A stretch of 64,000 nucleotides of DNA from Nemertoderma westbladi. Its lineage: Eukaryota > Animalia > Xenacoelomorpha. The notes beneath the pieces were generated by a model. That model was not told where the DNA came from. It ran no database searches and was given only the letters and a program-made list of their open reading frames with translations. The translations under genes were made by a program, and so were the position numbers. How positions within the stretch are numbered: position 1 is the stretch's first letter; each line of letters opens with the position of its first letter. Below are positions 27,025 through 56,705 of the stretch, piece after piece. The stretch covers positions 1-64,000 of the forward strand of contig JAUCBJ010003600.1 of assembly GCA_032718475.1 (NCBI GenBank), written 5' to 3'.

Positions 27025-29900
27025 GATGGTTTAGTGGACAGAGTTTATAGTTCCGATGGGTTAGTGGATATAGTTTATGGTTCGGATGGGTTGGTGGATA
27101 GAGTTTATGGTTCCAATGGGTTGGTGGATAGAGTTTATGGTTCCGATGGTTTGGTGGATAGAGTTTAGGGTTCCGATGTGTTGGTGGATAGAGTTTATGG
27201 CTCCGATGGGTCGGTGGATAGAGTTTATGGTTCCGATGGTTTGGTGGATAGAGTTTATGGTTCCCGATGGGTTGGTGGATAGAGGTTATGGTTCCGATGG
27301 GTTGGTGGATAGAGGTTATGGTTCCGATGGGTTGGTGGATAGAGTTTATCAGTCCGATGGGTTGGTGGATAGATTTTATGGTTCCGATGGGTTGGTGGAG
27401 AGAGTTTATGGTTCCGATGGATTGGTGAATAGAGTTTATGGTTCCGATGGGTTGGTGAATAGATTTTATGGTTTCGAAGGGTTGGTGGATAGAGTTTATG
27501 GTTCTGATGGGTTGGTGGATAGAGGTTATGGTTCCGATGGGTTGGTGGATAGAGTTTAGGGTTCCGATGTGTTGGTGGATAGAGTTTATGGCTCCGATGG
27601 GTCGGTGGATAGAGTTTATGGTTCCGATGGTTTGGTGGATAGAGTTTATGGTTCCCGATGGGTTGGTGGATAGAGGTTATGGTTCCGATGGGTTGGTGGA
27701 TAGAGGTTATGGTTCCGATGGGTTGGTGGATAGAGTTTATCAGTCCGATGGGTTGGTGGATAGATTTTATGGTTCCGATGGGTTGGTGGAGAGAGTTTAT
27801 GGTTCCGATGGATTGGTGAATAGAGTTTATGGTTCCGATGGGTTGGTGAATAGATTTTATGGTTTCGATGGGTTGGTGGATAGAGTTTATGGTTCTGATG
27901 GGTTGGTGGATAGAGGTTATGGTTCCGATGAATTACTGGACAGAGTTTATGAGTCCGATGGGTTGGTGGATAGAGGTTATGGTTCCGATGGGTTGGTGAA
28001 TATAGTTTATGGTTCCGATGGGTTGGTGGATAGAGGTTATGGTTCCTATGGATTACTGGACAGAGTTTATGAGTCCGATGGGTTGGTGGATAGAGGTTAT
28101 GGTTCCGATGGGTTGGTGAATAGAGTTTATGGTTCCGATGGGTTGGTGGATAGAGTTTATGGTTCTGATGGTTTGGTGGATAGAGGTTATGGTTCCGATG
28201 GATTACCTGACAGAGTTTATGAGTCCGATGGGTCACTGGATAGAGGTTATGGTTCCGATGGGTTGGTGAATAGAGTTTATGGTTCCGATGGGTTGGTGGA
28301 TAGAGTTTATGGTTCTGATGGTTGGTGGATAGAGGTTATGGTTCCGATGGAATACTGGACAGAGTTTATGAGTCCGATGTGTTGGTGGATAGAGGTTATG
28401 GTTCCGATGGGTTGGTGAATAGAGTTTATGGTTCAGATGGGTTGGTGGATAGAGTTTATGGTTCCGATGGGTTGGTGGATAGAGTTTATGGTTCCGATGG
28501 GTTGGTGGATAGAGTTTAGGGTTCCGATGTGTTGGTGGATAGAGTTTATGGTTCCCATTGGTTAGTGGATAGAGTTTATGGTTCCGATGGGTTGGTGGAT
28601 AGAGTTTATGGTTCCGATGGGTTGGTGGATAGAGTTTATGGTTCCGATGGGTTGGTGGATAGAGTTTATGGTTCCGATGGGTTGGTGGATAGAGTTTATG
28701 GTTCCGATGGGTTGGTTGATATAGTTTATGGTTCTGATGGGTTGGTTGATAGAGTTTATCGTTCCGATCGGTTGGTGGATAGAGTTTATGATTCCGATGG
28801 GTTGGTGGATAGATGTTTTGGTTCCGATGTGTTGGTGGATAAATGTTTTGGTTCCGATGTGTTGGTGGATAGAGTTTATGGTTCCCATTGGTTGGTGGAT
28901 AGAGTTTATGGTTCCGATGGGTTGGTGGATAGAGTTTATGGTTCCGATGGGTTTGTGGATAGATGTTATGGTTCCGATGGGTTGGTGGATAGAGTTTATG
29001 GTTCCGATGGGTTGGTGGATAGAGTTCATGGTTCCGATGGGTTGGTGGATAGAGTTTAGGGTTCCGATGTGTTGGTGGATAGAGTTTATGGTTCCGATGG
29101 GTTGGTGGATAGAGTTTATGGTTCCGATGGGTTGGTGGATAGAGTTTAGGGTACCGATGTGTTGGTGGATAGAGTTTATGGTTCCGATGGGATGGTGGAT
29201 AGAGTTTATGGTTCCGATGGGTTGGTGGATAGAGTTTAGCTTTCCGATGTGTTGGTGGATAGAGTTTATGGTTCCGATGGGTTGGTGGATAGAGTTTACG
29301 GTTCCGATGGGTTGGTGAATAGAGTTTATGGTTCCAATGGGTTGGTGGATAGAGTTTATGGTTCCGATGGGTTGGTGGATAGAGTTTATGGTTCCGATGG
29401 GTTGGTGGATAGAGTTTAGGGTTCCGATGTGTTGGTGGATAGAGTTTATGGTTCCGATGGGTTGGTGGATAGAGTTTAGGGTTTCGATGGGTTGGTGAAT
29501 AGAGTTTATGGTTCCAATGGGTTGGTGGATAGAGTTTATGGTTCCAATGGTTTGGTGGATAGAGTTTATGGTTCCGATGGGTTGGTGGATAGAGTTTATG
29601 GTTCCGATGGGTTGGTGGATAGAGTTTATGGTTCCGATGGGTTGGTGGATAGAGTTTAGGGTTCCGATGTGTTGGTGGATAGAGTTTATGGTTCCGATGG
29701 GTTGGTGGATAGAGTTTAGGGTTCCGATGGGTTGGTGAATAGAGTTTATGGTTCCAATGGATTTTTTGGATAGAGTTTATGGTTCCGATGGGTTGGTTGA
29801 TAGAGTTTATGGTTCCAATGGGTTGGTGGATAGAGTTTATGGTTCCGATGGGTTGGTGGATAGAGTTTTTGGTTCCGATGGGTTGGTGGATAGAGTTTGT
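27025..29900. repeat. 30-bp minisatellite, ~95 copies
   Basis: Unit gggttggtggatagagtttatggttccgat. Confidence 0.97.
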
Positions 29901-30667
29901 GAGCTCTACCTATAAAATAAGTAGAAATAATATAATTTATTAATAATGTATTCAAAATAACGGTAATACCAGATTACACTTTGAGACCCCGACTGTAGGA
30001 TATTTTCCATGTAACAATTTATTACTAACTTATTCTGAAGTTTTCAATAATTGTGTTCCAAGTAATTTGGTTCCAACATCTCCATTAAGCCACTAATATT
30101 TGAGTTCCAGTAGATTCCAGGTTTGTGTTTCCAGATTTCCTGGTTTCCCAGACTACGACGAATATCTGATAAGGAACAAATCATGTCGGTTCATTACAGT
30201 CCAGAATCGGGGTTATCTTATCGGATCGGCGATACTAAAAGATTTCAAGTTATCTGTTTTATAATTTAGGCGGTTGTTTGATTTGGTTCAGAGCCTGACA
30301 GTTTACTGGTTTACGATTCCGAGATCAGGAGATATTCGTATTTCTATCTATAAAAGAGAAAACTTATAAAATATTTATTAAACTTTAACTTGAATGTATA
30401 TTTACCATAATATAATAGAAATTGCACTAAATTTTATATATTTAATATAGTAGATGGTAGGCTATAAATAGCTATAAAATGCTAGTAGAAATTGTGTGTC
30501 CGGCCCTGACTGGCACTATAAGTTAAAAATAAATATGAGATATTATCCTTACCATTCTTGCTAAATAACATTATTATGGGATATATTCCAATAATATCCA
30601 AAACATTATTTATCTCTGGTTGGTAACAAAATTAAACACTGAAAATTGTATATAATTATTTTTATAT

Positions 30668-31513
30668 TTAGACTAAATCATCTAAATTATGTACAGCTGT
30701 AGTCAGGATATCAGCTATTTGACCCTGATTTGTGTCTCTCAGACATTGACAGAATGTAATAAAATCGTTGAATGACCTTCTAATTATCGCGTTGACCAGT
30801 TCATTATTCTTTGCCAATGTGGATTCTTTACTATTGATTGATTCAGCTATAGAATCCCTAAACACTTGTTTCCTACAAAGTAATTTTATTACCAAGTTTG
30901 GTTCGATTCTATTAACTAAAACAAACTTATATTTAGTTAGTATCAACGGAAACTTTTTATCATCATCTGTTGTTTTATCCTCTAAAATATATACTATATG
31001 AGTTTGATATGTTTCCTTTAATCCTTCAATAAATATTCCGTAATTATTTTCTGTACCCCATTTTATTGCCTCCAATAAAGTCTTTATTTTACTGAATACA
31101 TTTGGTTTCGAGTTAATTATAGATAAAACATCCCGAGACAAAGTTCGCTTAGCTTCTAAGAAAATTATAAGTTCCAATATTTCTAGTTTATCTAGAAGTT
31201 CATTCTCCTTAGACGCTATTTTCTTCCAATTTGAACTTAAATCACCTGTATATTTTTCTCTTATTAAGTTGCTTTCCATATGTTTATGAAACTTACATTT
31301 GACTTTATTATGTGAAATATTTTCATCGATTTCAATAAAATGGAAACAAATTTCTTCTCTACAGTTAATTTCATTGTGCTGTTCGCATTTTGAATTACAT
31401 TGACATTTTAAATGAAAACTAAACGAAATGTTTTTTATTCGAATTTGTTTAAGGAATTCCTGCAATGAATTATTAAGATAACACTTCACTTTATTGACCA
31501 GCTGTGGATCCGG
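30668..31513 (-). CDS. Paralogous module: COR C-terminal tail plus two CARD-like domains (exon or remnant of a tandem paralog)
   Basis: PDPQLVNKVKCYLNNSLQEF..CQCNSKCEQH..CFHFI..LLDKLEILELIIFL..LKETYQTHIVYIL..CLRDTNQGQIADIL aligns colinearly with the C-terminal ~300 aa of ORF 36013-32624. Confidence 0.75.
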   Translation of the reverse strand, partial: PDPQLVNKVKCYLNNSLQEFLKQIRIKNISFSFHLKCQCNSKCEQHNEINCREEICFHFIEIDENISHNKVKCKFHKHMESNLIREKYTGDLSSNWKKIASKENELLDKLEILELIIFLEAKRTLSRDVLSIINSKPNVFSKIKTLLEAIKWGTENNYGIFIEGLKETYQTHIVYILEDKTTDDDKKFPLILTKYKFVLVNRIEPNLVIKLLCRKQVFRDSIAESINSKESTLAKNNELVNAIIRRSFNDFITFCQCLRDTNQGQIADILTTAVHNLDDLV

Positions 31514-32680
31514 GTAATGTCTATAACAGCAGCCTCTCTACCTTGATTGGTAACGTCTATAACAGCAGACTCTCTAGCTTCATTGGTAATGTCTATAACA
31601 GCAGCCCCTCTACCTTGATTGATATCGTCTATTACAGCAGCCTCTCCACCTTCATTGGTAATGTCTATAACAGCAGCCCCTCTACCTTGATTGGTATCGT
31701 CTATTACAGCAGCCTTATCTACCTTGATTGGTAATGTCTATAACAGCAGCCTCTCTACCTTGATTGGTAACGTCTATAACAGCAGCCTCTCTACGTTGAT
31801 TGGTAACGTTTATAACAGCAGCATCTTCACCTTGATTGGTAAAGTCTATAACCCCAGCAGCCTCTCCACCGGTTGATTGGTAACATCTATAACAACAGCT
31901 ACATTATATTGATTGGCAATGTCTATAACAGCAGCCTCTCCACCGGTTGATTGGTAACATCTATAACAACAGCTACATTACATTAATTGGCAATGTCTAT
32001 AACAGCAGCCCCTCTACCTTGATTGGTATCGTCTATTACAGCAGCCTCTCTACGTTGATTGGTAGCGTTTATAACAGCAGCCTCTTCACCTTGATTGGTA
32101 AAGTCTATAACCCCAGCAGCCTCTCCACCGGTTGATTGGTAACATCTATAACAACAGCTACATTACATTAATTGGCAATGTCTATCTATAACAGCAGCCT
32201 CTCCACCGGTTGATTGGTAACATCTATAACAACAGCTACATTACATTGATTGGCAATGTCTATAACAGCAGCCTCTCCACCGGTGGATTGGTAACGTTTA
32301 TAACAGCAGTCTCTCTACCTTGATTGGTAACGTCTATAACAGCAGCCTCTTCACCTTCATTGGTAATGTCTATAACAGCAGCCTCTTCACCTTCATTGGT
32401 GATGTCTATAACAGCACCCCCTCTACCTTGATTGGCAATGTCTATAACAGCAGCCTCTCTACCTCGATTGGTAATGTCTATAACAGCAGCTTCTCTACCT
32501 CGATTGGTGATGTCTATAACAGCACCCCCTCTACCTTGATTGGCAATGTCTATAACAGCAGACTCTCCACCTGTTGATTGGTAACATCTATAACAACAGC
32601 TACATTACATTGATTGGCAATGTCTATAACAGCAGCCTCTCCACCGGTTGATTGGTAACGTCTATAACCCCAGCGGCCTC
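31514..32680. repeat. ~36-bp minisatellite grown from the ROCO C-terminal coding sequence
   Basis: Unit ttgattggtaatgtctataacagcagcctctctacc; the minus strand reads GREAAVIDITNQ, as in the ORF tail GGEAAGVIDVTNQ. Confidence 0.9.
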
Positions 32681-35600
32681 TCCACCTTGATTAGTATTAT
32701 CTCTATCAGCAACTTCATCAGGTTGATCGGTAATGTCTACAATATCCGCATCATAACCTTTGGTAGCTTCCTCTAGAGTATCAGCTAAATGATGTTGGTT
32801 GGTGACACGAAGACATTTACAAAAAGATAGAAAATCCTTGTAAGATCTTTTCATTACTGCGTTTATAAGTACAACATTCTTACTATCTATCGATTCTTTA
32901 CATTCTATTATTTCTATGATAGATTTACTTATAACTTTTCTGATAACAAGAAGTTGTGCAACAAATTTAGTTTGTTCTAAATTTTTCATTAACATATATT
33001 TATACTTTGTTAGAATATCAGGGAACATTTGGTCTTCCATTTTGATTTTTTCATGCAAAATTTCAACCAAAAGCGGTTGATTGGTTACATATAATGCTTC
33101 AATAAATACTTTGTAATTATTTTCTGATCCCCATTTTATTGACTCCAACAAAATCTTATTCTTACTCATCAAATTCGACTTAGATTCAATAACAGCTAAA
33201 ACTTCCTTTGATATAGCCCCCTTACTTGCTAAGTATACAAGTAACTCTGAGATTTCCAGTCTATCAATAAGGTCATCTTGGTTAGTTGTAATGTTTAACC
33301 AATGTGAGCTAAATCTCCCAACAACAGGGAATTTTCCACTAATAAATCGACTTCTAACAGTGTTATTAAATTGACATTCAACAAAATCATTTGATAAAAT
33401 ATCAGCCAGTTTAACAAAGTGAAAACACCCTTCTTCATTGCAGTCAAGTAATCTATGTTGATCGCATTTAGCATTACATTCACATTTTATTTCGAACTCA
33501 AATGAAATATTTTTAAATCTCATTTGGGTAATAATTTCCTTCAATGAAGTATTAATAAAGTGATTTACTTTATTAACAATATCCGGATCTGGTGCAAGTT
33601 TACTTTCAGTTTGTTCATCGCCCGAACTAAACATCTCAGATCTAACTACCTGAACTTTAATCCAATTTAATGAAATAGAAGATCTTTCCAAAATTACCTG
33701 ATGATTAAAATCTAAAAATATTTGAGCAACTCTGTGGTAAAGTTTAGGTTGAATTACTCTATTACCTACAATGTAGGACAAATCAATAGTTCTCTTAATT
33801 AAACGGTAGTACAATCCTTGCGGTAAGAAACTCTTGAATGTAATATAAAATTCAACTTTACATTGTCTTGGTGTGAATGGAGTATATCTAACAGATTTAA
33901 GGCGGCAAGGTACATAATAAGCCAACTTTACATCATCTTGCAATGTTCTTTCGGTTTTTGGTAAAACTCGTTCACATAGTAAATCAAAACGTTCTAGAAT
34001 ATTCAACATAAATTGTTTTTTATCAAGAACGTCTTCCCACAGATAATCAAGGAGTTCTTCATGTAATATACCATTGTTGTCCAGGTCCTTCCAGAACGTA
34101 AAATGTTGTTTCTTTATTTTGTCTTTTACAGTTATTATTTTGGTAAACATTCCACTCAACCATTCTGGGCTCAGTATAACAGTATCCCTTAGAGATTCAT
34201 CATCAAAGTAAATTATTTTACCCATATCGTGGTAAAATTCTAACATTGTTTTCAAACCAATGTTATCCATTTCTACATCAATATCCTTTAATTTAATCTC
34301 TAGCAAGTCAATGTCAATATAAACTTTACCATCCGTTATTAATTGAGACACAAGTTGGTCAAATTTTAGATATTGCAAAGGTATTTCCTCCTTAAAATTT
34401 GCCATTTCGTTGACAATATCGGCCTGTAAATTTTCAAGTCCTTTCTCTCCACCATATATAATTTCTCTATTATTCTCTATAGCAATGTAATCTTTAATTA
34501 AATTATCTGTATATGAAGATTTACCCAAATGGGTCTTAATCTTTTCAAATATTTTACTTGCTATTACAGATTGAGTTGCAGGATCAGCATGTAAGCTGCC
34601 TTTATGAGTTCCAACTACAAAAACAGGTGGACAAGAATTTATTTCTAGTTTTGTACCAAATGAATAAATATTTTTTAACCAAAATTCAATAAACTCAATA
34701 TTCTTAATCTCACCGAAAACAAACTCATTAATATTGTTTTCATCTGATCTGAAAATAATATCAGGAGTTTTTTCAAGATTTTCCAAGAGATTAAATACAA
34801 TTATATAAATAGCACGTCTACTCAAAAATATCTGATGGGTTGTGTAATAAATACATTGGCCACCAAAATCGACTATCTGTAGAGAAAAGCGACTGTCTTC
34901 CTCATTAAATTTAGCCAGAATATCTTGAGGTTTACCAGATAACAATATATCCTCTACTCCCTTTGTGATGTTTTCAGGAATATCATTTTCCATAGCTTCC
35001 CTTATGGGTTGCCTAGAAAGATTTTCTTCAATAGGTTTACTTTCATTCTCACCAGTTAATAAAGTTGTACTAGATTTTTTATTTATCCACAAAGTATCCT
35101 TTTGAACTTTCTCAGCACCATAACTTGAAGTTGTAGTAGCAATCTTAGGTTGATCATCAGTAGAAGATGAAGGTGTTGCAACTGAGGGTGTCGCAATACC
35201 AATACCCATTGCCGAAGTTCCAGAAATATCAGACTCATCACCTGCAACTTGTTTTCTTTCTAGAACTGTTTTTGCAATTTCCTTAGTAATGACGACATCA
35301 ACAGCTGTCTCAAGCTCTTCTTTCATGTTGGTCCAATCTCTGTTTTGTTCGGTATTTATAATACAGTTAGCAGATGAGTCAATACCATCAGTTATTGGTT
35401 CATTTATATCAAACGGTTGACCAATAAGGGACTTCTTCAAACTAGTTTTACCAGCCCTCTCTTGTCCCACTAACATTAACCGGGTTTTCAATATCCATGT
35501 AGTCCCTTTAGAAAGAGCTGCTTTATATGCAGCCAATGCTTCTGGGCCTCTCGCCAGTATCTCTATCGGCAGTTTTTGTTCTTTAATATAATTAATTAAA

Positions 35601-35991
35601 AATTTTGGAAGTTTCAGTGTATTAAATCCACTTATATTCATAATCATAAGTCCCATGTCTCTGAATTTATTAACAATTTCAATTGTTAAAATTTCATTTA
35701 AACCCCAAATACTAACCAGATTCTGGGTTGTTAGCTCAGAAATATCTGCATCCAGTCTAAAGTAAAGTTCTTTCTCTTTATCTGAAAGAACATCAACAGT
35801 AGATATAATTATATCAGTTATCTTACCCTGGAGTGGTTTATTTATGGGACCAACCCATCCAATATACTCAACAATTTCCTTTACTTCTTCAGTTTTCTCC
35901 AATATACTTTCCACCTGTTTGATACTTTTCTTTCTTTCAGTTTGACCTTCACGGAACGTATCAATTACTGTAATTGTGCCGCCATTATCTC
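32624..35991 (-). CDS. ROCO gene exon 2: end of WD40, APAF1-like winged helix, Roc GTPase, COR, two CARD-like domains
   Basis: Acceptor tttatacAG|GA at 35991; P-loop LMLVGQERAGKTSL, TDGID, DFGGQ..YYTTHQIFL, VVGTHK; COR L.FYHDMGKIIYF..VILSPEWL, YYVPCRL; two C-terminal helical death-fold repeats (FIEALYVTNQPLLVEIL; FCKCLRVTNQHHLADTL). Confidence 0.9.
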
Positions 35992-36588
35992 CTGTATAAA
36001 GGATAATTATCATTAAGCTGTCTTTCCACTATGTTGACATCCAATAATACGATGAAAAATTCAGGGTTGGAGCAAGTTAAATTATCTAAAATCTCGAGGT
36101 AATTCATTCATATTTTCAGAACTAACTTAAACATAGTTTCAACAACAGTATCAAAACTTTAACCAATCTCGATTTATTAGGTAGGGTACAAATGTAGTAT
36201 TTGGGCGCTATGGAGGTATTTATATAGTAATAAAAAGAACACCAATTTGTTTGTAAAGGACAGACTTATTGCAATATTGTCGATGTTATTAACTACTTTG
36301 GTGGGTTTAGAATGGAGTATACGCATAAGCAAATTACAAATATAATTATAAATATATTTCGTTAAGGCTCTCCAATATGCACCTACGGTCCCTATACGTT
36401 TCCCTGCCTATGTCTTCTATTTTTTTGGTTATTTATTATGTTTTTAGTGCAATTTTCAACAGATAACAAGTCGTACGTTACGTTAGTCAATTCTGCAATT
36501 TATATTAGAATTTGTACTTTATTGATAATGAAAGCGCTGAGCTACCGCAATATATTTGTAATTATATTTGAAATTTGATTAATAATAT

Positions 36589-36743
36589 TTAACTTGCTCC
36601 AACCCAGAATCTTTCATCGAATATATCTGACATCTCAAACTTTCTTATAGTTAATCCAAAATTACGTATTATAGCAAGGATCTTTCTTTCAGTTTGATCT
36701 TTACTGAACGTATCAATTACTGTAATTGTGCCGCCATTATCTC
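36589..36743 (-). CDS. Duplicated acceptor / putative alternative terminal exon of the ROCO gene
   Basis: Copy of tttatacAG|GAGATAATGGCGGC encoding DNGGTITVIDTFSKDQTERK, then diverging to a stop at 36589. Confidence 0.45.
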
Positions 36744-37212
36744 CTGTATAAAGTATAATTATCGTTAAGCTGTCTTTCCTCTGAGTTGACATCCAGTATT
36801 AGAGTACGATGAAAAATTCTGGGTTGGAGCAAATTAATTTTTATTAATCAAATTACAAATATAATTATAAATATAATTCGTTAGGCTCTCCAGTATGCAC
36901 CTATGGTCCCTATACGTTTCCCTGCCTATGTCTTCTGTTTTTTGGTTACAACTTTTATTCTGTGCAATTCAGTGCAATTTTCAACAGATATAAAGTCGTA
37001 CATTACGTTAAGTCAATTCTGCAATTTATATTAGAATTTGTACTTTATTGATAATGATAGCGCTGAGCTACCGAAATATATTTGTAATTATATTTGAAAT
37101 TTGATTAATAATATTTAACTTGCTCCAAACCAGAATCTTTCATCGAATATATCTGACATCTCAAACTTTCTTATAGTTAATCCAAAATTACGTATTATAG
37201 CAAGGATAAACG

Positions 37213-37508
37213 GACAATAGGCGGGACAATAGGCGGGGCAATAGGCGGGACAATAGGCGGGACAATAGGCGGGACAATAGGCGGGACAATAGGCGGGACA
37301 ATAGGTGGGACAATAGGCGGGACAATAGGCGGGACAAAAGGCGGGGCAATAGGCGGGACAATAGACGGGACAATAGGCAGGACAATAGGCCGGACAATAG
37401 GTGGGACAATAGGCGGAACATTAGGTGGGACAATAGGCGGGATAATAGGCGGGACAATAGGCGGGACAATAGGCGGGACAATAGGCGGGACAATAGGCGG
37501 GACAATAG
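37213..37508. repeat. 12-bp tandem repeat (caataggcggga)n
   Basis: Directly visible, ~24 copies. Confidence 0.95.
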
Positions 37509-37584
37509 GATGGTTAAAATTATAAAAATATGTTTTTTGCAATATTTCTGAGCCGAAGTATGAAGCTGAAATACAATATCTCAC

Positions 37585-39387
37585 TAATACTGTATACTGT
37601 TAATATAAACAAGTACACCCGCAATACTGTATACTGTTAATATAAACAACTACCCGCGATACTGTATACTGTTAATATAAACAACTACCCGCGATACTAT
37701 ACTGGTAATATAAACAACTACCCGCGATACTGTATACTGTTAATATAAACAACTACCCGCGATAATGTATACTGGTAATATAAACAACTACCCGCGGTAC
37801 TGTATACTGTTAATATAAACAACTACCCGCGATACTGTATACTGTTAATATGAACAACTACCCATGATACTGTATACTGTTAATATAAACAACTACCCGC
37901 GATATTGTATACTGTTAATAAACAACTACCCGCGATACTGTATACTGTTAATAAAAACAACTACCCGCGATACTGTATACTGTTAATATAAACAACTACC
38001 CGCGATAGTGTATACTGTTAATATAAACAACTACCCGCGATACTGTATACTGTTACTAAAAAAAAAACTACCCGCGATACTGTATACTGTTAATATAAAC
38101 AACTACCCGCGATACTGTATACTGTTAATATAAACAACTACCCGCGATACTGTTAATATAAACAACTACCCGCGATACTGTATACTATTAATATAAACAA
38201 CTACCCGCGATATTGTATACTGTTAATATAAACAACTACCCGCGATACTGTATACTGTTAATATAAACAACTACCCGCGATACTATACTGGTAATATAAA
38301 CAACTACCCGCGATACTGTATACTGTTAATATAAACAACTACCCGCGATATTGTATACTGTTAATAAACAACTACCCGCGATACTGTATACTGTTAATAA
38401 AAACAACTACCCGCGATACTGTATACTGTTAATATAAACAACTACCCGCGATAGCGTATACTGTTAATATAAACAACTACCCGCGATACTGTATACTGTT
38501 ACTAAAAAAAAAACTACCCGCGATACTGTATATTGTTAATATAAACAACTACCCGCGATACTGTTAATATAAACAACTACCCGCGATACTGTATACTATT
38601 AATATAAACAACTACCCGCGATATTGTATACTGTTAATATAAACAACTACCCGCGATACTGTATACTGTTAATATAAACAACTACCCGCGATACTATACT
38701 GGTAATATAAACAACTACCCGCGATACTGTATACAGTTAATATAAACAACTACCCGCGATATTGTATACTGTTAATAAACAACTACCCGCGATACTGTAT
38801 ACTGTTAATAAAAACAACTACCCGCGATACTGTATACTGTTAATAAAAACAACTACCCGCGATACTGTATACTGTTAATATAAACAACTACCCGCGATGA
38901 TATTGATATTGATATTGATTTATTAGTGACGGGACACATAATAGATAATATTTAAGTTGGTATAGACCGTTAGCAACCATACAATTGTTATAGATACAGT
39001 ACGAGATATTTTTGTTATGAAATTAAATCAGTATGGTATGAAAAATATATGAACAGTACATCTTACGCGAGTTATATCGATAAAATTGTCACTTAATGGG
39101 ATAGCCACATGAGGCGCACCTCGTTTCCATGTGGGTCCCCGATACTGTATACTGTTAATATAAACAACTACCCGCGATACTATATACTGTTAATATAAAC
39201 AACTACCCGCGATACTGTATACTGTTAATATAAACAACTACCCGCGATACTGTATACTGTTAATATAAACAACTACCCGCGATACTGTATACTGTTAATA
39301 TAAACAACTACCCGCGATATTGTATACTGTTAATATAAACAACTACCCGCGATACTGTATACTGTTAATATAAACAACTACCCGCGA
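37585..39387. repeat. 35-bp minisatellite, interrupted at ~38898-39139
   Basis: Unit aaacaactacccgcgatactgtatactgttaatat. Confidence 0.95.
38898..39139 (-). mobile_element. Short retroposon-like 3' end (AATAAA plus (TCAATA)n tail) inserted in the minisatellite
   Basis: gatattgatattgatattgatttatt followed by unique sequence; the array resumes at 39139. Confidence 0.5.
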
Positions 39388-39388
39388 G

Positions 39389-39630
39389 ATGTGGTCGAGA
39401 ATAGTCTCCAACACTCCGCTAGCTCCAACAGTAGCACCCAAACCTACATACGATACTTATTGTGTTATACGATTTGTACCAACAGTCTCCAAAGCTATAA
39501 AAACAATCCTTGATCAGATTGGATTGCACACATTTAATTTCAAACGTAGCACTCGGTCAAATAAATTGGACCAGACGAACTACCAATTTAAACTTCGGTC
39601 TAATAGCAGTCAATAGTGCTGGTTTACAAG
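39389..39630 (+). mobile_element. Possible Penelope-like RT/GIY-YIG linker fragment
   Basis: YCVIRFVPTVSKAIKTILDQIGLHT resembles the PLE linker (LPYVPGLSEKIKRIL); degenerate. Confidence 0.35.
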
Positions 39631-40105
39631 GCTGAGATACTGTAACTCCCTCTTGAAATGACTCCCCAATCGTCTCAGCCTAGGCTGAGAACACTCCCCA
39701 CCACCAGTTATGACTCCCCTTAGGCTGAGATGACTCCCCTTAGGCTGATATGACTCCCCTTAGGCGGAGATGACTCCCCTTAGGCTGAGATGACTCCCCT
39801 TTGGCTGAGATGACTCCCCTTAGGCTGAGATGAAGCCCCTCAGGCTGAGATGACTCCCCTTAGGCTGATATGACTCCCCTAATTGAGTTATAATTCATAT
39901 CCGTACCTGTGCTATTTCCGTATATTGCAAAAATTAAACTGTTACCTATGTTAATGAGTTGTCGTTTATTGTTTTGGTTAGAAAAGCCCGCCACTGTAAC
40001 CTGCTCCTTTCCGTTAATTAAGAAATCTAGGAAGAAAACTGGGTAGTGTTCTCAGCCTAGGCTGAGAAGACTGGGGAGTCATATTTGGTGGGGAGTTATC
40101 TCAGC
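39631..40105. mobile_element. MITE-like element with imperfect TIRs and internal 20-bp repeats (taggctgagatgactcccct)
   Basis: ggctgagat..gactccccaatcgtctcagcctaggctgagaacact is inverted as agtgttctcagcctaggctgagaagactggggagtc..atctcagcc. Confidence 0.65.
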
Positions 40106-42480
40106 CAGTTACATCGGACGAACTTAAAATTTTTTTTACAAAGTTTAAGTTGACTCGATATGAAACTGTTTCGAAAATTTCTACAAATTTACTCCGATTT
40201 AAAGAGGGTTGGGAAAGAAGGTTAAACTCATGCAGGCAATATGTAAAATAGACTGTAATGCCTGAACTGACCATAATTACATTGGGAAACTTAAACGAAA
40301 ACATGTAAAGCGCCACAATGAACATTATTTATGGAGAGTGTTAGAGTTTTTACTGACAGTGTTGGTGGTGGGCTTAAAATTTGAATTTAAATAATGGTAA
40401 TTGGTAAATAAAAAGTATCGATTTACAGTTATATGCGGTCTTATATAATGGCTATAAACGTTGTGAAATAACACAACACTGTATCGACAATGGCCACTTA
40501 TTCGACGAATATAACGTGTCAGTTCTAGACTCCCATATATAGATCCAACCGATTTGGCAACTCACAAAACTATTCAAATACGAACTAATTTATATACATA
40601 TATTTTTATAATAATTTATTTTACCAGGAATAAAACGACATTAAAAATTGTACTTTCTTTGATGAGTGACACTTATATACTTATATGAACTTACATTAAT
40701 ATTTTTCCACATTCACTGTTCTGTACACTCGTAATTTTTGAAAAAGACACTTACTCTGCTATAAACAGTACAATAACACTTATTGTAACATGAGAAAACC
40801 TACCAAATCCAATGATACATTTCTCTGTTTGTGGGAAAGTATGTTTGTTTGTTGTGGTGGGAAATTTCAAAAAGGTCAGGGTATCATATTCTGTATCACT
40901 ACCCGTCTAAATACTATAGAGAAAAGTTGTCTTTGCCTGACCCCGTAAGAGATCAGAAATATTGCCATAAAGTTGTAAATAGTAAATGTGGCTGTAAATA
41001 AAATAGTCATATTCCAAACAGTATGAGTCAAAAATGAGCTCCCTACTGCACGATAATTTAACTCGCAGAAATAAGCTGTTTCCTTATTAAAAATTGTATT
41101 AGTTCAACTCAGAGCAGAGGACCCCATGTAACCGGAATTTTCAATTTTACATTTAAATTTTTACTTTAGCGTTTTATAAAAGTGTCTTTTACGAAATTGT
41201 TGCCTTCGTTTCGTTGTCATTTTTCTCATCAATAGTGATTTATTTTTTATATTTGAAAGTTTGCATTGTGAGGATTCCAAATATGCATAAATGTCTAAAT
41301 TTCGTTGATAAACAAATGAGATATGGGCGTTCTAAGATTGCAAGAAGTATCTTTCATTATAATATACCAGTTATTTATGTATATGTGTAGCTATGGATAC
41401 ATAAATATAATAATATATAATAAATAGGATAAATAAATACGATTTTTATCATAAAAATGATAAAAATAATAACACGTTCTAGAATGTTGTGTTTATATTA
41501 ACTATAATAAATGACTTCCAGCGAATGATAATTTATCACAATCTTTGAACGCCAGTATTATATCACAGCTGTTTCTCAACGAAACTCAAAATATATTTAT
41601 ATTTGGAATCCTTACAACTCAAGCTTTCTAAAAATATGCCATTGTGGCTAATAATATGAGGAATGGCCGTGATGCAATGAGGGCGATATCGCAAACGTTA
41701 AACGTATATAAATTCAAAATAGAAAATTATACGTAGCTCCATGTTAAATAAAGTATGATACAGATTGTATAAAAATAAGGTGGGGTGTGGGTTAGGGGTG
41801 TCCCTTCTTATCTAAAATGACACTTTATTACGGGCAAGGTGTTATATAATATAATACACCTTGTTGTATGCCTAAGTAATTGGACTGTGTGGCAGACCTA
41901 AAAATGAAAGTTTTTATTATACATTACCGGTTGTATTCTCTTACAGTTACTTTACTGCATTGCAGTACCGGTACGCATATTGGTACCATTATAGTTTGTT
42001 TATTTAAGTAGAACTACCAGTTGGTTAAAACGCCATTGATACAAACCAATAACAAACACCCTAACATATAACTGAATACATAATATTATTAAGCTAATTG
42101 CTGGTTTATTAGTTTATTTTTATGTTACATTTACCGAAACCAAACCGCACCTAAAACTATCCGACTACAGGGACTATGTTGTAATGGTCTATATTCTGAT
42201 ATTAGACTAATTTAAATTTCGTTCCCATGGTACCCAATATTGGCAGGAGGCAGTGAAGGTAATGTTCAGTTAATCCGCATCATATCGGTAAGTAAATTAT
42301 TAATTAAATAAAATAAAATTAAATACCGGTAATAGGCCCCTAATAATTAATGTAATTAATTCATTTAAGTGTTATAATGCTTATTACTTACTATGGTACG
42401 TGGTACGGTACTGAATTAGACCCTAGGCCTAATTAATTAATTTAACGTGTTTTAATAAAGGAGGTCTATTAATTAATTAC

Positions 42481-43336
42481 CTGTAATAATATGCCGGTCA
42501 TCTTTACAGAAATCGACAGCACGGATGCGGTTCCCCGTTCCTTCAATCCGGTTGATAACCTCCCCAGTTACAGAATTTAGAATATAAATCAACCCGGTGT
42601 TCCTCCCAACAGCAGCGATTCTGGATCCGTTCGGACTCAATACGATCGTCAGGACCTCAGGAGTTGCTTCCTGTTTCCACAAGGTCTCCCCTGAACCAAC
42701 AACGAAGCGATGGATCCCTCCTCCCTCATCTACCGACACCACTGACTCCCCATCCGGACCCCAACCCAGACTGTAGAACCTCCCACTGTACCCCCGGTAT
42801 TGATACAACATCTCCCGGGTTCCGGTCAACCAAACTTTTACTGTTCTATCCTCCGAACAGCTGGCCAACCGGGACCCGTTCGAGTCGAACCGAATACAGT
42901 AAACCGACCCAGAATGCCCCACCCAGTTCGTAACCTCATAGTTCCCCCCAGTTACTGATATAATAGAAATCCCCCCGTTGGACCCACAAGTTACAATGAC
43001 GTCCCGGTTGGAGGGATTTATATCTATTCCCAACCTCCATTCATGCTCCCCCCCACCAACCACTAACTTCCTCCCCGGTACCTCCACTACGACCCTCCAA
43101 CCGGTCGCTTCCCGCTCCCAGACAGTCACCAACCCCCTCCAACCGGTTCCCGAGGCAACGCGGTTCCCGTCCGTAGAAACCGCGACTGTTTCGTAGTAAT
43201 CGTTAGAACCTCCGGATCCCGGTAGATCTTCCTTTTTGTAGAGAGTTGTTGAATTTATGATACAGGGGAGGTTGTGAGACACAAAGACAACCTCCTCGGT
43301 ACCCGGGATCATTTTGAGTTCCCGGATCGGCGCCAT
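42481..43336 (-). CDS. ROCO gene exon 1: WD40 beta-propeller (~7 blades)
   Basis: GHSGSVYCIRFDSNGSRLASCSEDRTVKVW and related repeats; donor ACAG|GTAATT at 42481/42480 (phase 1); acceptor ttttAG| at 43356 upstream of the ATG. Confidence 0.9.
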
Positions 43337-44026
43337 TGTTAGGGGGATTATTGAATCTAAAAGATAAAATAAAGTAAATTGCCGCTAAATTGCTAAAGTA
43401 CTAATAAGTATTACAGCGCTAGTAATTGTTATTAGATAGTCAGCGTAGCCAGTAATTATTTACTAGCTGTTTTTATTTATTCGGTTTGTATAAACGATCA
43501 ATATAATATTTAATTTATTTTTAATGTTCCAGTAAAACAAAGTGTTCTAGAACCTTAATTGATAACGAACTTGTTCTAGGAGATTAAAAAGTAGCGACAA
43601 CTAGTTAGTTTAAATAATTTAGGTTTTTTTTAAATAAAATGTTCTAGAACAAAATAAATATGTTCTAGAACATGAATATTGAACATCCAGTATTTGTGCT
43701 ACATACCGTAGTTAGTATAAGGTTTGGTATTTAATAAATATACGGAAGGAAACCTTTTCAAACTAAAATTTATTTAGTTATTTTGCAAATAAGTTTTGCA
43801 AGTAATTTGACCAAAAATTCATTCAAAAACTTAAAAGTTATTGCAATTTTAGTGTCTGAAAGACGAACTCCATAACGGAACTCAATAACCACTATTGGTT
43901 TATGTAGTTAAGCGGCTCTCTAGTTACTTAATAAATATCCGAGAACACTAAATTATTTAACATTGAGTTAAGGCAGCCATCAGGAGTTGGGGAGTTCAAT
44001 AACAAAAAAGTAACAATATAATTACG

Positions 44027-45561
44027 TATTACTACTACTATTACTACTAGGATCGGCATGCTGCATTGCAGCTGCATTTTTAAGAATGCTGTGCCGGCTT
44101 GTCAACAAAATTGCACCGCCACAACTCCCTATCACCCATGACATTTGCTAGATCATCCGCATCTTCAAGGCCAGTGTCCTTTAAGATGCGTCTCAAGAAA
44201 GTCATGGGCTGTCCACTATGCTTATTCACTCCATGAGGCTGCCAAAGTACAAGATTATGCACTGGCTGGTCCTCACGGCGAAAGCAATGTCCTGCAAAGC
44301 GGAGACGATTTTGTTCTAGTGTCAAGCTTGGGGGAACCAATGAGACACCTCCAATGTTATATAGTGTCTGGTTGGAGATGTGTGCATTGTACTTGGCACA
44401 ATTAACCCGGCGTAGCATTCTTGTGAATGTGCCATCCAGAAATTTGGTGTCCTCAGCAGTTAGAGCCCAGCATGGACTCCCATAGAGGAGTACTGGAACT
44501 ACTGCTGCTCTAAATAATCGGACCTTAAGTTTTCGATTAATTCTCGGTGACTTCCAAATCCTGGAAAGCCTATTCAAGGCTGCCCGTGCCTTTCCCTTAC
44601 GTATTCAAAGGTCCTCACCTGACTTCCGGATCCATGATCCCAGGTAACAGAAGTCGTCCACATGCTCAAGCATACCATCCTTTGAGTTATGCTCATCCGA
44701 TCAGAGACTTGCTGAGGACTTTCAAAGTTAACTGTCAGAATTTTGGTCTTTCTGGAGTTAATAAAAAGACCAACACTAGAAGCAGCATTTTCTAATGAGC
44801 TGAGGAGCCGTTGGGCTCCCTCTAATGATTCTGAGAGTACTCATAAGTCATCAGCAAAGTCTAGATCAGTTAGGCACTTGGCAGGATTTCCTCGACTTCT
44901 GGAGCCAGTAGGTGGAGTTATCATCACCCCATCATCATTATGATGATCTAAGGACATGCGTAGAACATAGTCAACCACAATAATGAACAAGAATGGTGCA
45001 AGTGTGTCTCCTTGGGGGACGCCCCATAACACTTCAAATGGTTCTGTGTCACCGTCAACAGTAGACACAAATGTTGTCGAACCATCGTATACTGATCTGA
45101 TTGCTGCAATAATTTCATACGGAATCCCATATAATGAAAGTATGCTGAACATACGTGAGCGAGAGACTGAATCAAATTCCTTGAAGAAGTCAACAAAGAT
45201 AACAGCCAGATGCCTGTCTTTCTTTTTTGATAATTCTTCAATTATCCTTCTAAGTGCCAAAATGGGCTCCATGGTCCCACGACCTTTACGGAACCCATTC
45301 TGATTTCCACGGAGCAGTCTCTCAATGGGATCCTTGATGCGATTTAATAGAATCTTATTGTATAGCTTTGCAGCAATCGAGATCAATGAGATTCCCCGAA
45401 AAGAACCATAGAGTGTTAGGTTGCCCTTCTTGGGAACTACTGGCACCAACTTATTTGTTTTCATTTCTTGTGGGACTCTTGTTGTGGGGCGAGCCACGAA
45501 GTTGGCGGAGCCTTAGCGAATTGACACTGTTAGGGGGTGGGTCAATTTATGCAAATAGTTG

Positions 45562-45593
<32 letters not shown>

Positions 45594-46228
45594 GTCGTTG
45601 TCGTCGTCGTTACGATTTTGACATGCTAATAACTTTGTCGGATTTAAAGCTGCCAAGTTGAAAATTTGTAGGTATCAATATGAGCAAAAGTTGAGATTTT
45701 TGAGAGACTTTCAGACACCATCAGTGCAATGGTCTCCCGCTAGAGGGCCACATGTCTAAACATTAAATGCCCTCCCATTTCTTTGCTTTTAATCCGTTTA
45801 AGCTGAAACTTGGCAGATATGTATTAGACCATTAGCTGTGACTTTCAAAGGAGGCGAATCCATCTGCAGTTCTCCAGTCTGCCGCTAGAGGGCCAACGTG
45901 ACAACGACAACTATTTGCATAAATTGACCCACCCCCTAACAGTGTCAATTCGCTAAGGCTTCGCCAACTTCGTGCTGCGCGAAGTCCCCACTTCGTGTAC
46001 GGTACATGTCTACTATGATGGGATAGATGAGCTTTAAACACTCAGGTATTTTAAAGACCTCAGGGGGAACACCATCTACTCCACTGGCACGATTGGTCTT
46101 AATGCTCTTTGCAGCAGCCTTCACTTCTGCAAAGGAGATATCGCCGATGGGAATATCTGGGAGTACAGACTCAGACACTTTTACTTCTATAAAGTTATCA
46201 GGCAATACCCTGTCATTATTGAGGAGCG
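44027..46228 (-). mobile_element. 5'-truncated RTE-clade LINE (RT plus C-terminus, (TAG)n-like tail), frameshifted
   Basis: RASGVDGVPPEVFK, PKKGNL..FRGISL, QNGFRKGRG, FVDFFKEFDSV, GVPQGDTLAPFLF, DFADDL, LLYGSPCW, RLRFAGHCFR; tail tactactac at ~44030-44050. Confidence 0.93.
45483..45995. mobile_element. Non-autonomous element (Helentron/HINE-like or MITE) inserted in the RTE RT
   Basis: ~75-bp inverted repeats (45495-45570 / 45900-45974), (GTC)n microsatellite, terminal hairpin cgaagt-cccc-acttcg, flanking TGT duplication; excision restores MYRTRVPQE. Confidence 0.75.
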
Positions 46229-46235
46229 TATTACG

Positions 46236-46365
46236 TATTACATGGGAAAAAAGTGGAACATTTCTTTTCAATATTCTCTCGACCCTTTATTAACCTCGCT
46301 GACGCGGTAAATAAAATGCCTCGAGAATAGTGAAAAAAAGTTCTACTTTTTCTCCCATGTAATAA
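46236..46365. repeat. Imperfect ~130-bp palindrome (MITE-like hairpin)
   Basis: tattacatgggaaaaaagtggaac...tattctctcga vs tcgagaata...gttctactttttctcccatgtaata. Confidence 0.7.
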
Positions 46366-48507
46366 ATAATTATTATTTGTTGTATATAAGTCACTTTTTT
46401 AGTCAAAGTCGTTTGTCAAGTTTGACATAAAAATAGCACTTTTTCTGCCAACACAAAAAGTAATGTTTCCATGACATTAATTATAATATTGCATTTAAAT
46501 AGATTAAATAGATAATTTCTATAATAATAGCTAGTTTTTGCTTATTTTATTATAAATGTTCTAGAACAAGTGTTGGTTATCAATTTTGATAAATATTTTT
46601 GTTCTTGAACACATTTTTTTTCTAGAACATTTTTAGGAAAAAAAATACCATACTACTGTCAGAAGGTCAAATATTTGTTCTAGAATAAAAACCTCATGAT
46701 AAAAGCCTATTTATATGAAAAAAATTGGTTAAACTACGGGTACCCAAGGTGTTATAGTAATGGCCGTATTTAACTAACAAACCATCAGGGCATGAATGAA
46801 TAAAGCAAAATAAAACCCAATGAACCCTCACAAAGAAGCTCACAAACTAGGGCGCTAATCCTGTAGTAACAATCAGGACGCACCTCCCGAACCTCCCTTA
46901 TTTGGCTTAGCCTAATCACACCGCACAATTTTTAGCTAGGCGCCTACACTTCACCACTTACCCCTGCTGCCCTGTTATCAGTCACAATTGACCTCATAAC
47001 TTGACACCTGGTAGTAAATGCAAAGGGTAACAAAGTCAACTGTGCCCCTTTTTTGGGCCCCAATGTAAACACCAAGCAACTAAATAAAGGTAATGCGGTT
47101 AATCTCCCCTATTTTAAAACAAATACAACGCTTACTGCAGTGGCTGGCCTGGTACAATAGTTCAACTTCCCTGATTTTTGTTAGCTAACGCATCTCAGAC
47201 TTTCCCCCTTTCACATTCCATAGGCCTGCGTCGGGCCTAGATGATCCCTACTCCATATCACAGGGATTCACCGCCTTCAAGGTTGCAAGGTACGACAGCA
47301 CGGTCTGACGGTAGGCTCTGCACGGCACTGACCGCGGACTAGGTTTTAAAAGTCTGTATTATTGATCAGCACATTGCAGAATATTAATATGTTTAGAGTT
47401 AAATTAAATTTAAATTGTATAAGCAGTCAGGCAGCACCGGACCGGTACATATTCCAGTACAGCAGTACACAAGTACAGCAGCACGGTACAGAATTCAGAA
47501 TTTTAGAGTTAAAGAGTACAACTGTACAAGTATTGTGACTTATGCACATAGAATGAATCATATGCCCGCCTGGCCTAATGCAAGACTGGCGTCCAATAGA
47601 AATGTTGCAAATGGCACCTTTTTAAATATATTTTTTGGTGGGTTGTTTAAATAATACTTTCCTAATGTTATTTGTAGGTATCGTTGCACACAGTTTAGGT
47701 ATATTATACAGTAGATTTTAGATTTCTTACGACAATATGACTGACCATAATATATTATAAAATATCAAAATTTTCTTGGTGCGTACCTAAAGATAACTAA
47801 GCTAATCTAATGCCTTTCGATAAGAATATTACAATGGCGTGTACTCTCGCCAACACTCGTGGTATATTTACTTTTTCAAGAGATACTTAAATAAGCCCAA
47901 TCCAACGTCATGTTCCTGTGTTTTCACTCAACATATCCATTCAAGATGGCGTCCATTCATTGGCAATATCCAATCTACTTATGCTAATGAGTTCTTTACT
48001 ATAGTCACTGCGTACAGGCGCATTGCATTGTTACCTTGCTAGCCATAGCCATCCATTATTATTACATTGACACAACGTTCTTTAATACAACCCCACAGAG
48101 TTCATAGAGAGTTCACAGACAGTTGTTCGCGCATACCATCTCAATCAGGCCTACGCGACCGTAGCCTACTTGTTTCAGTTTACATTCAGTGGGCTTTATT
48201 TATACAAAGGCAACGGCCAGTGTCATTTCATTCAATAACAATACTTCTGTGTTACTTACCGTAGGTAGTTGTTACGTCGGATTACAATAATTAATTATCC
48301 GTTCGCAATCAAATATTATATTAAAGTGTTTCGGGACGACGCCATCCTTTGTTATTGCAAGGACTATTAATTCATTCAAAGCAAAGGTAATTTATTTATT
48401 ATAATCCCGTATATAATTATTACGTAGCTAGACTTACTATAAGAAGGCTGAACTTATTAATTAACTTATTATTTAAATTCATTTACTCAGGTTTACTCAA
48501 TTATTTT

Positions 48508-48654
48508 GGCGCTAATCTTCTGGTAGACTCGACCGGCCAGAAGCTGAAACTGTCTGACTTTGGTAGTACGGCAGCCCGTCTGCAGTCGCAACAAACGTTC
48601 GGTGGGGAATTCCAGGGTCAACTATTGGGCACCATCGCATTTATGGCTCCAGAA
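48508..48654 (+). pseudogene. MAP3K1: Isolated kinase subdomain VIb-VIII exon of MEKK1/MAP3K1, copy 1
   Basis: [49 protein letters not shown]|gtaagt matches MAP3K1 [41 protein letters not shown]. Confidence 0.85.
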
Positions 48655-49809: not shown

Positions 49810-50472
49810 GACGTTTTGTTTGAACCCCAATATCTTCATAAGAACAAAATATATTTAAAAACGGTTACTGTATTTGGAATCTGCTGTTAATTTAACACTA
49901 AAAGAAGTATCACAAGTTAACTTTTCTCTAAATGTTACAGAAACGGACAGGGAATAGTTATGTCTGCCTTTTCAAGAAAAAATACCTAAAATATCATAAA
50001 ATATCAAAAAACGTTGTGTTTGAACCCAAATATCGCGAGAACTACCAATAATATGTAAAAACGGTTACTGTATTTGGAATCTGCTGTTAATTTAACACTA
50101 AAAGAAGTATCACAAGTGAACTTTTCTCTAAATGTTACAGAAACGGACTGGGAATAGTTATGTCTGCTTTTTCAATAAAAAATACCTAAAATATCATAAA
50201 ATATCAAAAAACGTTGTGTTTGAACCCAAATATCGCGAGAACTACCAATCATATGTTAAAACGGTTACTGTATTTGGAATCTGCTGTTAATTTAACACTA
50301 AAAGAAGTATCACAAGTGAACTTTTCTCTAAATGTTACAGAAACGGACTGGGAATAGTTATGTCTGCTTTTTCAATAAAAAATACCTAAAATATCATAAA
50401 ATATCAAAAAACGTTGTGTTTGAACCAAAATATCGCGAGAACTACAAATCATATGTAAAAACGGTTACTGTT
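49810..50472. repeat. 200-bp tandem repeat, ~3.3 copies (repeated at ~61005-61667)
   Basis: acggttactg recurs at 49861, 50061, 50261 and 50461. Confidence 0.93.
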
Positions 50473-50477
50473 TTTAG

Positions 50478-56705
<6,228 letters not shown>

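What the first reader, a model, noticed from the sequence alone, without database searches (positions are those of the whole stretch)
32624..43336. Spliced WD40 - APAF1-like winged helix - Roc - COR - CARD - CARD protein: an apoptosome-like sensor with a GTPase core
Seen: the WD40 ORF ends HIIT-G|gtaatt (phase 1, 42481) and the Roc ORF has an acceptor tatacag|GA (35991). Joining them gives ...AVDFCKDDRHIITGDNGGTITVIDT, completing the last WD40 blade, for ~1407 aa in total. After the propeller, IIISTVDVLSDKEKELYFRL..NLVSIWGLNEILTIEIVNKFRDMGLM..LPKFLINYI resembles the APAF1 winged helix (SISVEML..KDYYTDL..VLCILWDMETEEVEDILQEFVNKSLL..LHDLQVDFL). Roc-COR and two CARD-like folds follow. Known: APAF1 is CARD-NBARC-WHD-WD40; ROCO proteins (LRRK2, DAPK1, MFHAS1) use Roc-COR for nucleotide-dependent dimerisation. 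Inference: this is a reversed-order APAF1-like receptor in which Roc-COR replaces NB-ARC, possibly for innate immunity or cell death. I do not recognise this architecture from any named protein.
Basis: partly seen in the sequence, partly recalled or inferred. Interest (0 to 1): 0.85.

Follow-up and report, generated by a model that had tools for sequence, protein, structure and literature searches.

The report
Roco GTPase carrying an Apaf-1-type winged helix
An animal gene encodes an LRRK2-type GTP switch ending in two cell-death (CARD) domains, likely spliced to a propeller-shaped sensor and preceded by what is likely a lone piece of an Apaf-1-type ATPase, so it is predicted to be an immune or cell-death sensor with a domain mix I did not find described, inside a family already known for swapping such parts.

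Summary
A GT donor (42480) and an AG acceptor (before 35991) join two ORFs in phase 1 into a stop-free 1407-aa frame. Pfam confirms WD40, Roc, COR-A and two CARDs, and GTPase motifs G1-G3 are intact. The splice is inferred, not shown; sequence tests favour it (about 75%). The segment before Roc is probably an AP-ATPase winged helix (profile z 6; 0 of 500 shuffles, 0 of 444 control windows), but no structural match was obtained and the MHD-type His-Asp is lost.

The interpretation needs turning round. This is a Roco, not a reversed Apaf-1. Its core belongs with invertebrate Roc-COR proteins that swap N-termini (Neuralized, FN3, NACHT, TPR, ankyrin) at the same point. It lacks NB-ARC, HD1 and HD2, and has one propeller. 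Roco-CARD proteins (Trichoplax) and propeller-Roc proteins (bacteria) are in print, and this scan noted both on other DNA, though not this combination.

Likely a sensor-switch-CARD scaffold. New variant of a known kind; interest 0.5.

The parts
42481..43336 (-). Exon 1: WD40 beta-propeller, residues 1-285, ending inside what is by eye the seventh blade; 53% GC (GC3 58%) against 32% (GC3 24%) for exon 2
   Evidence: fold confidence 81-82; seven-blade count is my reading of the sequence
43357..43375 (-). Pyrimidine-rich acceptor-like site 20 nt before the ATG, in frame in phase 1: exon 1 may be an internal or shuffled phase 1-1 exon, or follow a 5' UTR intron
   Evidence: sequence; no upstream coding exon recognised in 43400-50500
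35992..42480 (-). Predicted intron, 6489 nt, GT...AG, phase 1, holding 12-, 20- and 35-nt minisatellites
36690..36840 (-). Duplicated copy of the intron end and the first ~50 nt of exon 2 (about 90% identical), with an intact acceptor at 36743; its use would give a 336-aa propeller-only protein. Part of a ~520-nt tandem-like duplication (36845-37207 matches 36326-36681)
32624..35991 (-). Exon 2: end of the propeller, helical linker, winged helix, Roc, COR, CARD, CARD, short repeat-derived tail
35576..35824 (-). Likely winged-helix domain of AP-ATPase (Apaf-1/NB-ARC) type, residues 342-424, standing alone and lacking the MHD-type His-Asp
   Evidence: for; blank
34469..35557 (-). Roc GTPase with a long low-complexity insert; G1 GQERAGKTS (35467), switch I Thr (35395), G3 DFGG (34870), G4 GTHK (34612), G5 region IENN (34480)
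33320..34333 (-). COR-A (33977-34333, Pfam) followed by a COR-B-like region that ends in a Cys/His cluster shared with some Neuralized-Roco relatives (possible zinc site)
   Evidence: (COR-B only E 0.14)
33053..33292 (-). CARD 1
32765..33025 (-). CARD 2
   Evidence: second stretch; weak match to the CED-3 CARD, E 0.15
31513..32696 (-). 36-nt minisatellite, 32 copies, starting inside the last codons of exon 2; units carry AG|GT; recurring 38-41-nt units break the frame
30668..31513 (-). Second module: COR-B tail, Cys/His cluster, CARD, CARD; 281 codons without a stop, 130 of 278 aligned residues identical to module 1, dN 0.40 / dS 1.08; link to the main ORF unresolved

Best explanation
This is a kinase-less animal Roco GTPase ending in two CARDs that likely splices to a WD40 propeller exon, likely carries a lone AP-ATPase-type winged helix, and is predicted to work as a cytosolic sensor-switch-scaffold in immunity or cell death. 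Shown: the open frames, splice signals, WD40/Roc/COR-A/CARD matches and intact G1-G3 motifs. Inferred, step by step: (1) the two exons form one 1407-aa protein (about 75%); (2) the propeller binds the trigger; (3) the winged helix (about 80% that it is one) has lost its nucleotide-reading His-Asp and serves as a hinge or packing surface coupling propeller to Roc; (4) Roc-COR cycles between a GDP dimer and a GTP monomer, as the Chlorobium Roco does, and so hides or frees the CARD pair; (5) the freed CARDs recruit a CARD-bearing caspase or adaptor. Historically it is a Roco that gained new N-terminal parts at the family's usual swap point, not an Apaf-1 that lost its ATPase.
For: Join: phase-compatible GT/AG and a 1407-aa frame. 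Of 775 AG sites in 29000-42480, the one at 35991 ties for second (with its own duplicate) as completion of a WD40 blade, and is the only one of the top 12 that opens a frame over 300 aa (1121 aa). Exon 1 product with the first 140 residues of exon 2 scored 0.54 against a best control of 0.01 (weak support; runs share at least 65% of contacts, partner pLDDT at least 56; the mark was reached by 51 of 78 solved and 2 of 108 mismatched pairs, but at 0.60 or under by only 5 of the 78 and by all 4 mismatches that passed; halves of a split gene tend to pass by likeness to solved propellers). Winged helix: end-to-end score 32.3 against a profile of 120 bacterial NB-ARC-WD40 winged helices; shuffles -11.0 +/- 7.2, 0 of 500 as high; 0 of 444 natural control windows; only the winged-helix window of the ATPase matches (z 5.4; windows not overlapping it at most 1.6); the profile's seed matches human Apaf-1 366-435 (E 0.007); Atlas neighbours are WHD_MalT (0.90), HTH_77 and DUF7779 clusters. 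Roco origin: 66 relatives, best 30-36% identical over about 67% of exon 2; 31 of 66 list Neuralized; others carry FN3, NACHT, GT4, TPR, ankyrin, DED; alignment begins at the shared P-E-I-x-x-R-G motif. Sensor-Roc-COR-effector logic is proposed for prokaryotic Rocos in PMC8195603 section 15.
Against: No transcript evidence for the join. Exon 1 and exon 2 differ sharply in base composition (GC3 58% vs 24%), and exon 1 alone reads to a stop three codons past the donor. One unrelated AG (41042) scores slightly higher in the blade test. No protein with the full architecture was found, so conservation cannot vouch for it. All functional steps are by analogy.
Confidence: 0.5

Rival explanations
1. 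Two separate genes: a short WD40 gene (287 aa, or 336 aa through the duplicated acceptor) and a winged-helix-Roc-COR-CARD-CARD gene with another first exon.
For: Base composition of the exons differs strongly; 6.5 kb of repeat-rich DNA lies between them; an equally good acceptor at 36743 comes first; no relative with the fused form among 66 + 74 hits (candidate lists capped, domain lists truncated).
Against: The first residues of exon 2 fit the missing strand of a WD40 blade; exon 2 has no Met before the winged helix (first Met after the acceptor lies inside it); duplicated junctions did not disturb normal splicing in lancelet genes (PMC3087553 passages).
Confidence: 0.2
2. An Apaf-1-like receptor in reversed order: the winged helix still relays sensor state to the nucleotide site, and GTP loading drives an apoptosome-like ring that clusters CARDs.
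For: The winged helix matches the AP-ATPase type; propeller, winged helix and CARD are all Apaf-1 parts; an unchecked scan note reports a caspase-Apaf-1 fusion in this genome (e1-10585771), so the parts are being shuffled here.
Against: No NB-ARC, HD1 or HD2 signal; His-Asp replaced by Pro-Lys; the propeller is no closer to Apaf-1 than to other WD40 proteins; Roc-COR forms dimers and monomers, not rings (PMC5714945 abstract, PMC6337361 passages).
Confidence: 0.12
3. The true product is longer and carries four CARDs: the 36-nt array is an intron (or a disrupted linker) and the second module is a third exon.
For: Module 2 is intact and under purifying selection (dN/dS about 0.37), starts exactly at the array's end, and several weak donor/acceptor pairs join it in frame (for example 32740 to 31501); no AATAAA/ATTAAA lies within 600 nt after the first stop, two follow the second.
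Against: The in-frame donors are poor matches to the consensus; the natural first-to-last AG|GT join ends at a stop out of frame with module 2; module 2 has its own Met before the CARDs (31279) and could be a CARD-only gene or the remnant of a tandem paralogue.
Confidence: 0.25
4. A Roco scaffold for trafficking or development rather than defence, the CARDs serving as plain interaction modules.
For: Characterised Rocos act in chemotaxis, vesicle traffic and leaf patterning (PMC4104024 section 5); no paralogue expansion could be tested here.
Against: Tandem CARDs, a duplicated CARD module, a long branch (1.4 changes per column) and relatives bearing TIR, Death, DED, NACHT and GT4 domains point to conflict or death signalling.
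Confidence: 0.15

Closest known systems
Invertebrate Neuralized-Roc-COR-Death-TIR proteins (e.g. Saccoglossus 'neuralized PATS1', Strongylocentrotus LOC755988; Aplysia ROCO-MyD88-like, PMC9334734 passages)
   Same: Closest Roc-COR core (30-36% identity), same long insert in Roc, same N-terminal swap point, death-fold output at the C-terminus.
   Different: WD40 plus winged helix in place of Neuralized; two CARDs in place of Death-TIR; outside that clade in the tree (clade support 98, query on a long branch).
Trichoplax ROCO repertoire (Civiero et al. 2014, PMC4104024 section 5 part 1)
   Same: Kinase-less Roc-COR flanked by CARD and death domains, repeats and AAA-type ATPase domains.
   Different: The text names TPR and LRR sensors, not WD40 or a lone winged helix; its Figure 1 could not be seen.
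Coral NACHT-Roc-COR-Death protein (Oculina, P0045) and brittle-star CARD-FN3-Roc-COR(-TIR) proteins (P0043, P0055)
   Same: STAND-derived parts or a CARD fused to the same kind of Roc-COR core.
   Different: P0045 keeps a whole NACHT module; the brittle-star CARD is N-terminal and single.
Prokaryotic propeller-AP-GTPase-COR-effector proteins (Kaur et al. 2021, PMC8195603 section 15 and supplement file 6)
   Same: Sensor-Roc-COR-effector order; 'BetaPropeller+AP-GTPase' occurs 41 times in the supplement.
   Different: Bacterial; TIR, caspase and other effectors; 'wHTH+AP-GTPase', 'COR+CARD' and 'AP-GTPase+CARD' occur 0 times in the 13 files (file 4 is cut when stored).
Apaf-1 (PDB 1z6t, 3jbt) and bacterial TIR-NB-ARC-WD40 proteins (P0102 family)
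   Same: Winged helix of the same type; WD40 and CARD folds present.
   Different: No NB-ARC, HD1 or HD2; His-Asp lost; one propeller, placed N-terminally; CARDs C-terminal and paired; GTPase core.

Membership tests
Roco (Roc-COR GTPase) | Roc domain with G1-G3 motifs | tested here: met
   Pfam PF08477 E 1.3e-11; motifs aligned with 8 relatives
Roco (Roc-COR GTPase) | COR directly after Roc | tested here: met
   COR-A E 8.9e-13 above cut-off; COR-B only E 0.14 but aligned through with relatives
Roco (Roc-COR GTPase) | GTP binding, hydrolysis and nucleotide-dependent dimer-monomer cycle | not testable with these tools
   needs biochemistry
Neuralized-Roc-COR-Death-TIR orthologue group | Neuralized N-terminus, Death-TIR C-terminus, placement inside the clade | tested here: not met
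   No such Pfam domains; outside the 35-row clade in a FastTree tree, though on a long branch
Apaf-1 / AP-ATPase STAND | NB-ARC ATPase (Walker A/B, HD1) | tested here: not met
   No Pfam hit; no hit of a 119-sequence NB-ARC-to-HD2 profile in exon 2 or in six frames of the window; HD1-tail test z -0.6
Apaf-1 / AP-ATPase STAND | Winged-helix domain of AP-ATPase type (sequence) | tested here: met
   End-to-end profile z 6.0, 0 of 500 shuffles, 0 of 444 control windows; specific to the WHD window; local HMMER and HHalign blank
Apaf-1 / AP-ATPase STAND | Winged-helix fold (structure) | tested here: inconclusive
   Single-sequence model too poor (pLDDT 43) for the fold searches
Apaf-1 / AP-ATPase STAND | MHD-type His-Asp at the end of the winged helix | tested here: not met
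   Aligned positions read Pro-Lys
Apaf-1 / AP-ATPase STAND | HD2 followed by two C-terminal WD40 propellers, N-terminal CARD | tested here: not met
   HD2-start test z 0.3; one N-terminal propeller and C-terminal CARDs
CARD (death-fold) | Two CARD domains | tested here: met
   PF00619, two stretches, E 2.5e-14; six-helix pattern in the low-confidence model
WD40 propeller | Closed seven-blade propeller completed across the junction | tested here: inconclusive
   Blade-end score and weak complex support without interface; the joined protein was not folded

The most novel reading that the evidence does not exclude
An animal has rebuilt an apoptosome-type receptor on a GTPase: a propeller and an Apaf-1-type winged helix gate a Roc-COR switch that exposes two, or with the downstream module four, CARDs, while the duplicated acceptor yields a propeller-only decoy isoform. 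It would be a natural hybrid of the STAND and Roco switches and a direct test of whether the winged helix can regulate a nucleotide switch other than its own ATPase.
Probability: 0.15. Interest if true: 0.8.

Novelty: new variant of a known kind. Interest (0 to 1): 0.5.

Why it matters
Invertebrate Rocos are a large, almost untested pool of candidate immune receptors that may use GTP where NLRs use ATP. This one has a compact sensor, an intact-looking GTPase and a CARD pair that gives an easy readout, so it is a practical case for asking whether a Roc-COR switch can control death-fold signalling. The lone AP-ATPase winged helix fused at the Roc boundary is the unusual element: I did not find it outside its ATPase module in the searches run, and it shows parts moving between the two switch families.

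Full report
Observation. The minus strand holds a WD40 ORF (ATG at 43336) and a long ORF ending at 32624. A GT donor follows 42481 and an AG acceptor precedes 35991. The exons are 856 and 3368 nt, the phase is 1, and the join reads 1407 aa without a stop. Pfam finds WD40 in exon 1, and Roc, COR-A and two CARD stretches in exon 2.

Is the splice real? It could not be shown with reads. Three indirect tests favour it. First, I scored how well each of 775 AG sites in 29000-42480 completes a WD40 blade, using a matrix from 251 repeats of unrelated proteins; 564 gave a stop-free segment. The site at 35991 tied for second with its own duplicate at 36743 (6.2 bits), behind a site at 41042 (6.5) that opens only 54 codons. 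It is the only one of the top 12 that opens more than 300 codons. Second, by my reading of the repeats exon 1 stops inside the seventh blade. Third, the exon 1 product and the first 140 residues of exon 2 were placed together at 0.54 against a best control of 0.01. The tool calls this weak support: scores at or under 0.60 were reached by 5 of 78 solved pairs and by all 4 mismatches that passed, no interface is given, and halves of a split gene tend to pass by likeness to solved structures. Against the join, the exons differ in composition (GC3 58% vs 24%), and a copy of the acceptor about 90% identical, with the first 50 nt of exon 2, lies 750 nt earlier; its use would give a 336-aa propeller-only protein. 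Such duplicated junctions resemble the 'mirage' repeats of lancelets, which did not disturb splicing there (PMC3087553, passages); an unchecked scan note reports them elsewhere in this genome. I put the join at about 75%. An in-frame phase 1 acceptor-like site 20 nt before the ATG leaves open an upstream exon; none was recognised.

The winged helix. Residues 342-424 have no detectable relatives: Pfam is blank, and phmmer over 1.84 billion proteins gave one spurious hit. The ESM Atlas put the segment next to an unnamed cyanobacterial cluster (0.93) and next to WHD_MalT (0.90), HTH_77 and DUF7779 clusters, a lead only. I collected 120 bacterial NB-ARC-WD40 proteins (the best 120 of 741); the seed's winged helix matches human Apaf-1 366-435 (E 0.007) and plant ADR1-type NLRs. 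Local hmmsearch with this narrow profile missed the segment (E 4.1) and HHalign gave 1.9%. An end-to-end profile alignment scored 32.3, against -11.0 +/- 7.2 for 500 shuffles (none as high), -14 for the reversed segment, and at most 12.7 for 444 natural windows. Sliding the profile along the ATPase, only the winged-helix window matches (z 5.4); HD1-tail and HD2-start tests are blank. The His-Asp that ends this domain in the profile aligns with Pro-Lys; that this motif contacts the nucleotide in Apaf-1 and plant NLRs is recalled. Structure models were too poor to test the fold. I put a winged helix of AP-ATPase type at about 80%, and read it as a lone domain that no longer reads a nucleotide.

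The core. The 66 relatives of exon 2 (of 7993 candidates scored) are nearly all animal or unnamed Rocos. The best are 30-36% identical over about two thirds of the query, and 31 of 66 list a Neuralized domain. Others carry FN3, NACHT, GT4, TPR, ankyrin-KH, B-box or DED domains (ten proteins scanned). PF00400 is listed for 0 of 66 and CARD for 2 of 66 (N-terminal in P0043). Similarity starts at a shared P-E-I-x-x-R-G motif just before Roc (for the query), which is where the winged helix ends: it occupies the family's variable slot. G1, the switch I Thr and G3 are intact; G4 and G5 match the relatives, and these two are known to vary in Rocos (PMC6337361, passages). In a FastTree tree of all 67 rows the query is a long branch in an unresolved fork with the Neuralized, sea-urchin and brittle-star groups (support 93), outside the Neuralized clade; its exact place is unsure.

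Beyond the stop. The ORF runs into a 36-nt array of 32 copies. Directly after it lies a second copy of the COR-B tail and both CARDs: 281 open codons, 130 of 278 residues identical, dN 0.40 and dS 1.08. It is old and maintained. It may be a third exon (weak in-frame splice pairs exist), a CARD-only regulator from the Met at 31279, or a paralogue's remnant.

How it most likely works. The order sensor-Roc-COR-effector is the one proposed for prokaryotic counter-invader Rocos (PMC8195603, section 15 read). I infer that the propeller binds a trigger, the winged helix passes the change to Roc, and the Roc-COR dimer-monomer cycle (GDP dimer, GTP monomer in the Chlorobium protein; PMC5714945, abstract) frees the CARD pair to recruit a caspase or adaptor. 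Every functional step is analogy; overall confidence 0.5. An apoptosome-like ring is less likely (0.12), since the ring-forming ATPase is absent.

Comparison and novelty. It is a Roco by both testable criteria, and it is not an Apaf-1 family member. Rocos with CARD and death domains are described in Trichoplax (PMC4104024, section 5 part 1 and passages; figure not seen), and ROCO-TIR or ROCO-Death proteins in Aplysia and sea anemones (PMC9334734, PMC5094078, passages). Propeller-Roc fusions are listed for bacteria: 41 occurrences in the supplement of PMC8195603, with 0 for wHTH+AP-GTPase and COR+CARD. PMC11378527 (passages) mentions WD40 among N-terminal Roco repeats. PMC2575513 was read in passages and added nothing specific. 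The scan has noted Roco-CARD proteins in other animals and WD40-Roc-COR proteins in bacteria and a protist (unchecked), but no look-alike of this gene. The combination WD40-winged helix-Roc-COR-CARD-CARD did not appear in the seven architecture searches listed under Tried and rejected. It is a new variant of a known kind. The lone winged helix is the part a specialist would notice; the rest is the shuffling expected of this family. Interest 0.5.

Noticed in passing
window 6800-20821: Polinton/Maverick-like gene set: 1152-aa ORF (only an Endonuclease_7 hit), A32-type ATPase (11907-12542), rve integrase with chromodomain (13975-14784), and several ORFs without Pfam hits. The element label is from recall of the gene set.
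   Followed up: partly
window 877-4081: DUF1759 and aspartyl protease ORFs in pieces, typical of a BEL/Pao LTR retrotransposon (label recalled).
   Followed up: no
window 44080-46286 and about 24775-25881: Decayed non-LTR retrotransposon fragments; RVT_1 E 5e-21 at 44841-45512.
   Followed up: no
window 47856-52805 and 59050-64000: A direct duplication of at least 4952 nt at 99.8% identity, running off the window end: recent segmental duplication or assembly artefact.
   Followed up: no
window 27025-29898 and 50476-58231: A 30-nt minisatellite of 96 copies and a long GTAC-rich short-period array that give long spurious ORFs.
   Followed up: no
window 33380-33490 and 31290-31410 (minus): Cys/His cluster between COR-B and the CARDs, kept in both modules and in some Neuralized-Roco relatives: a possible zinc site.
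   Followed up: partly
P0045, P0048, P0049, P0056 (corals); P0043, P0055 (brittle star): Relatives with NACHT-, GT4-, TPR- or ankyrin-KH-Roc-COR(-Death) and CARD-FN3-Roc-COR(-TIR) architectures: an under-described receptor-like family.
   Followed up: partly
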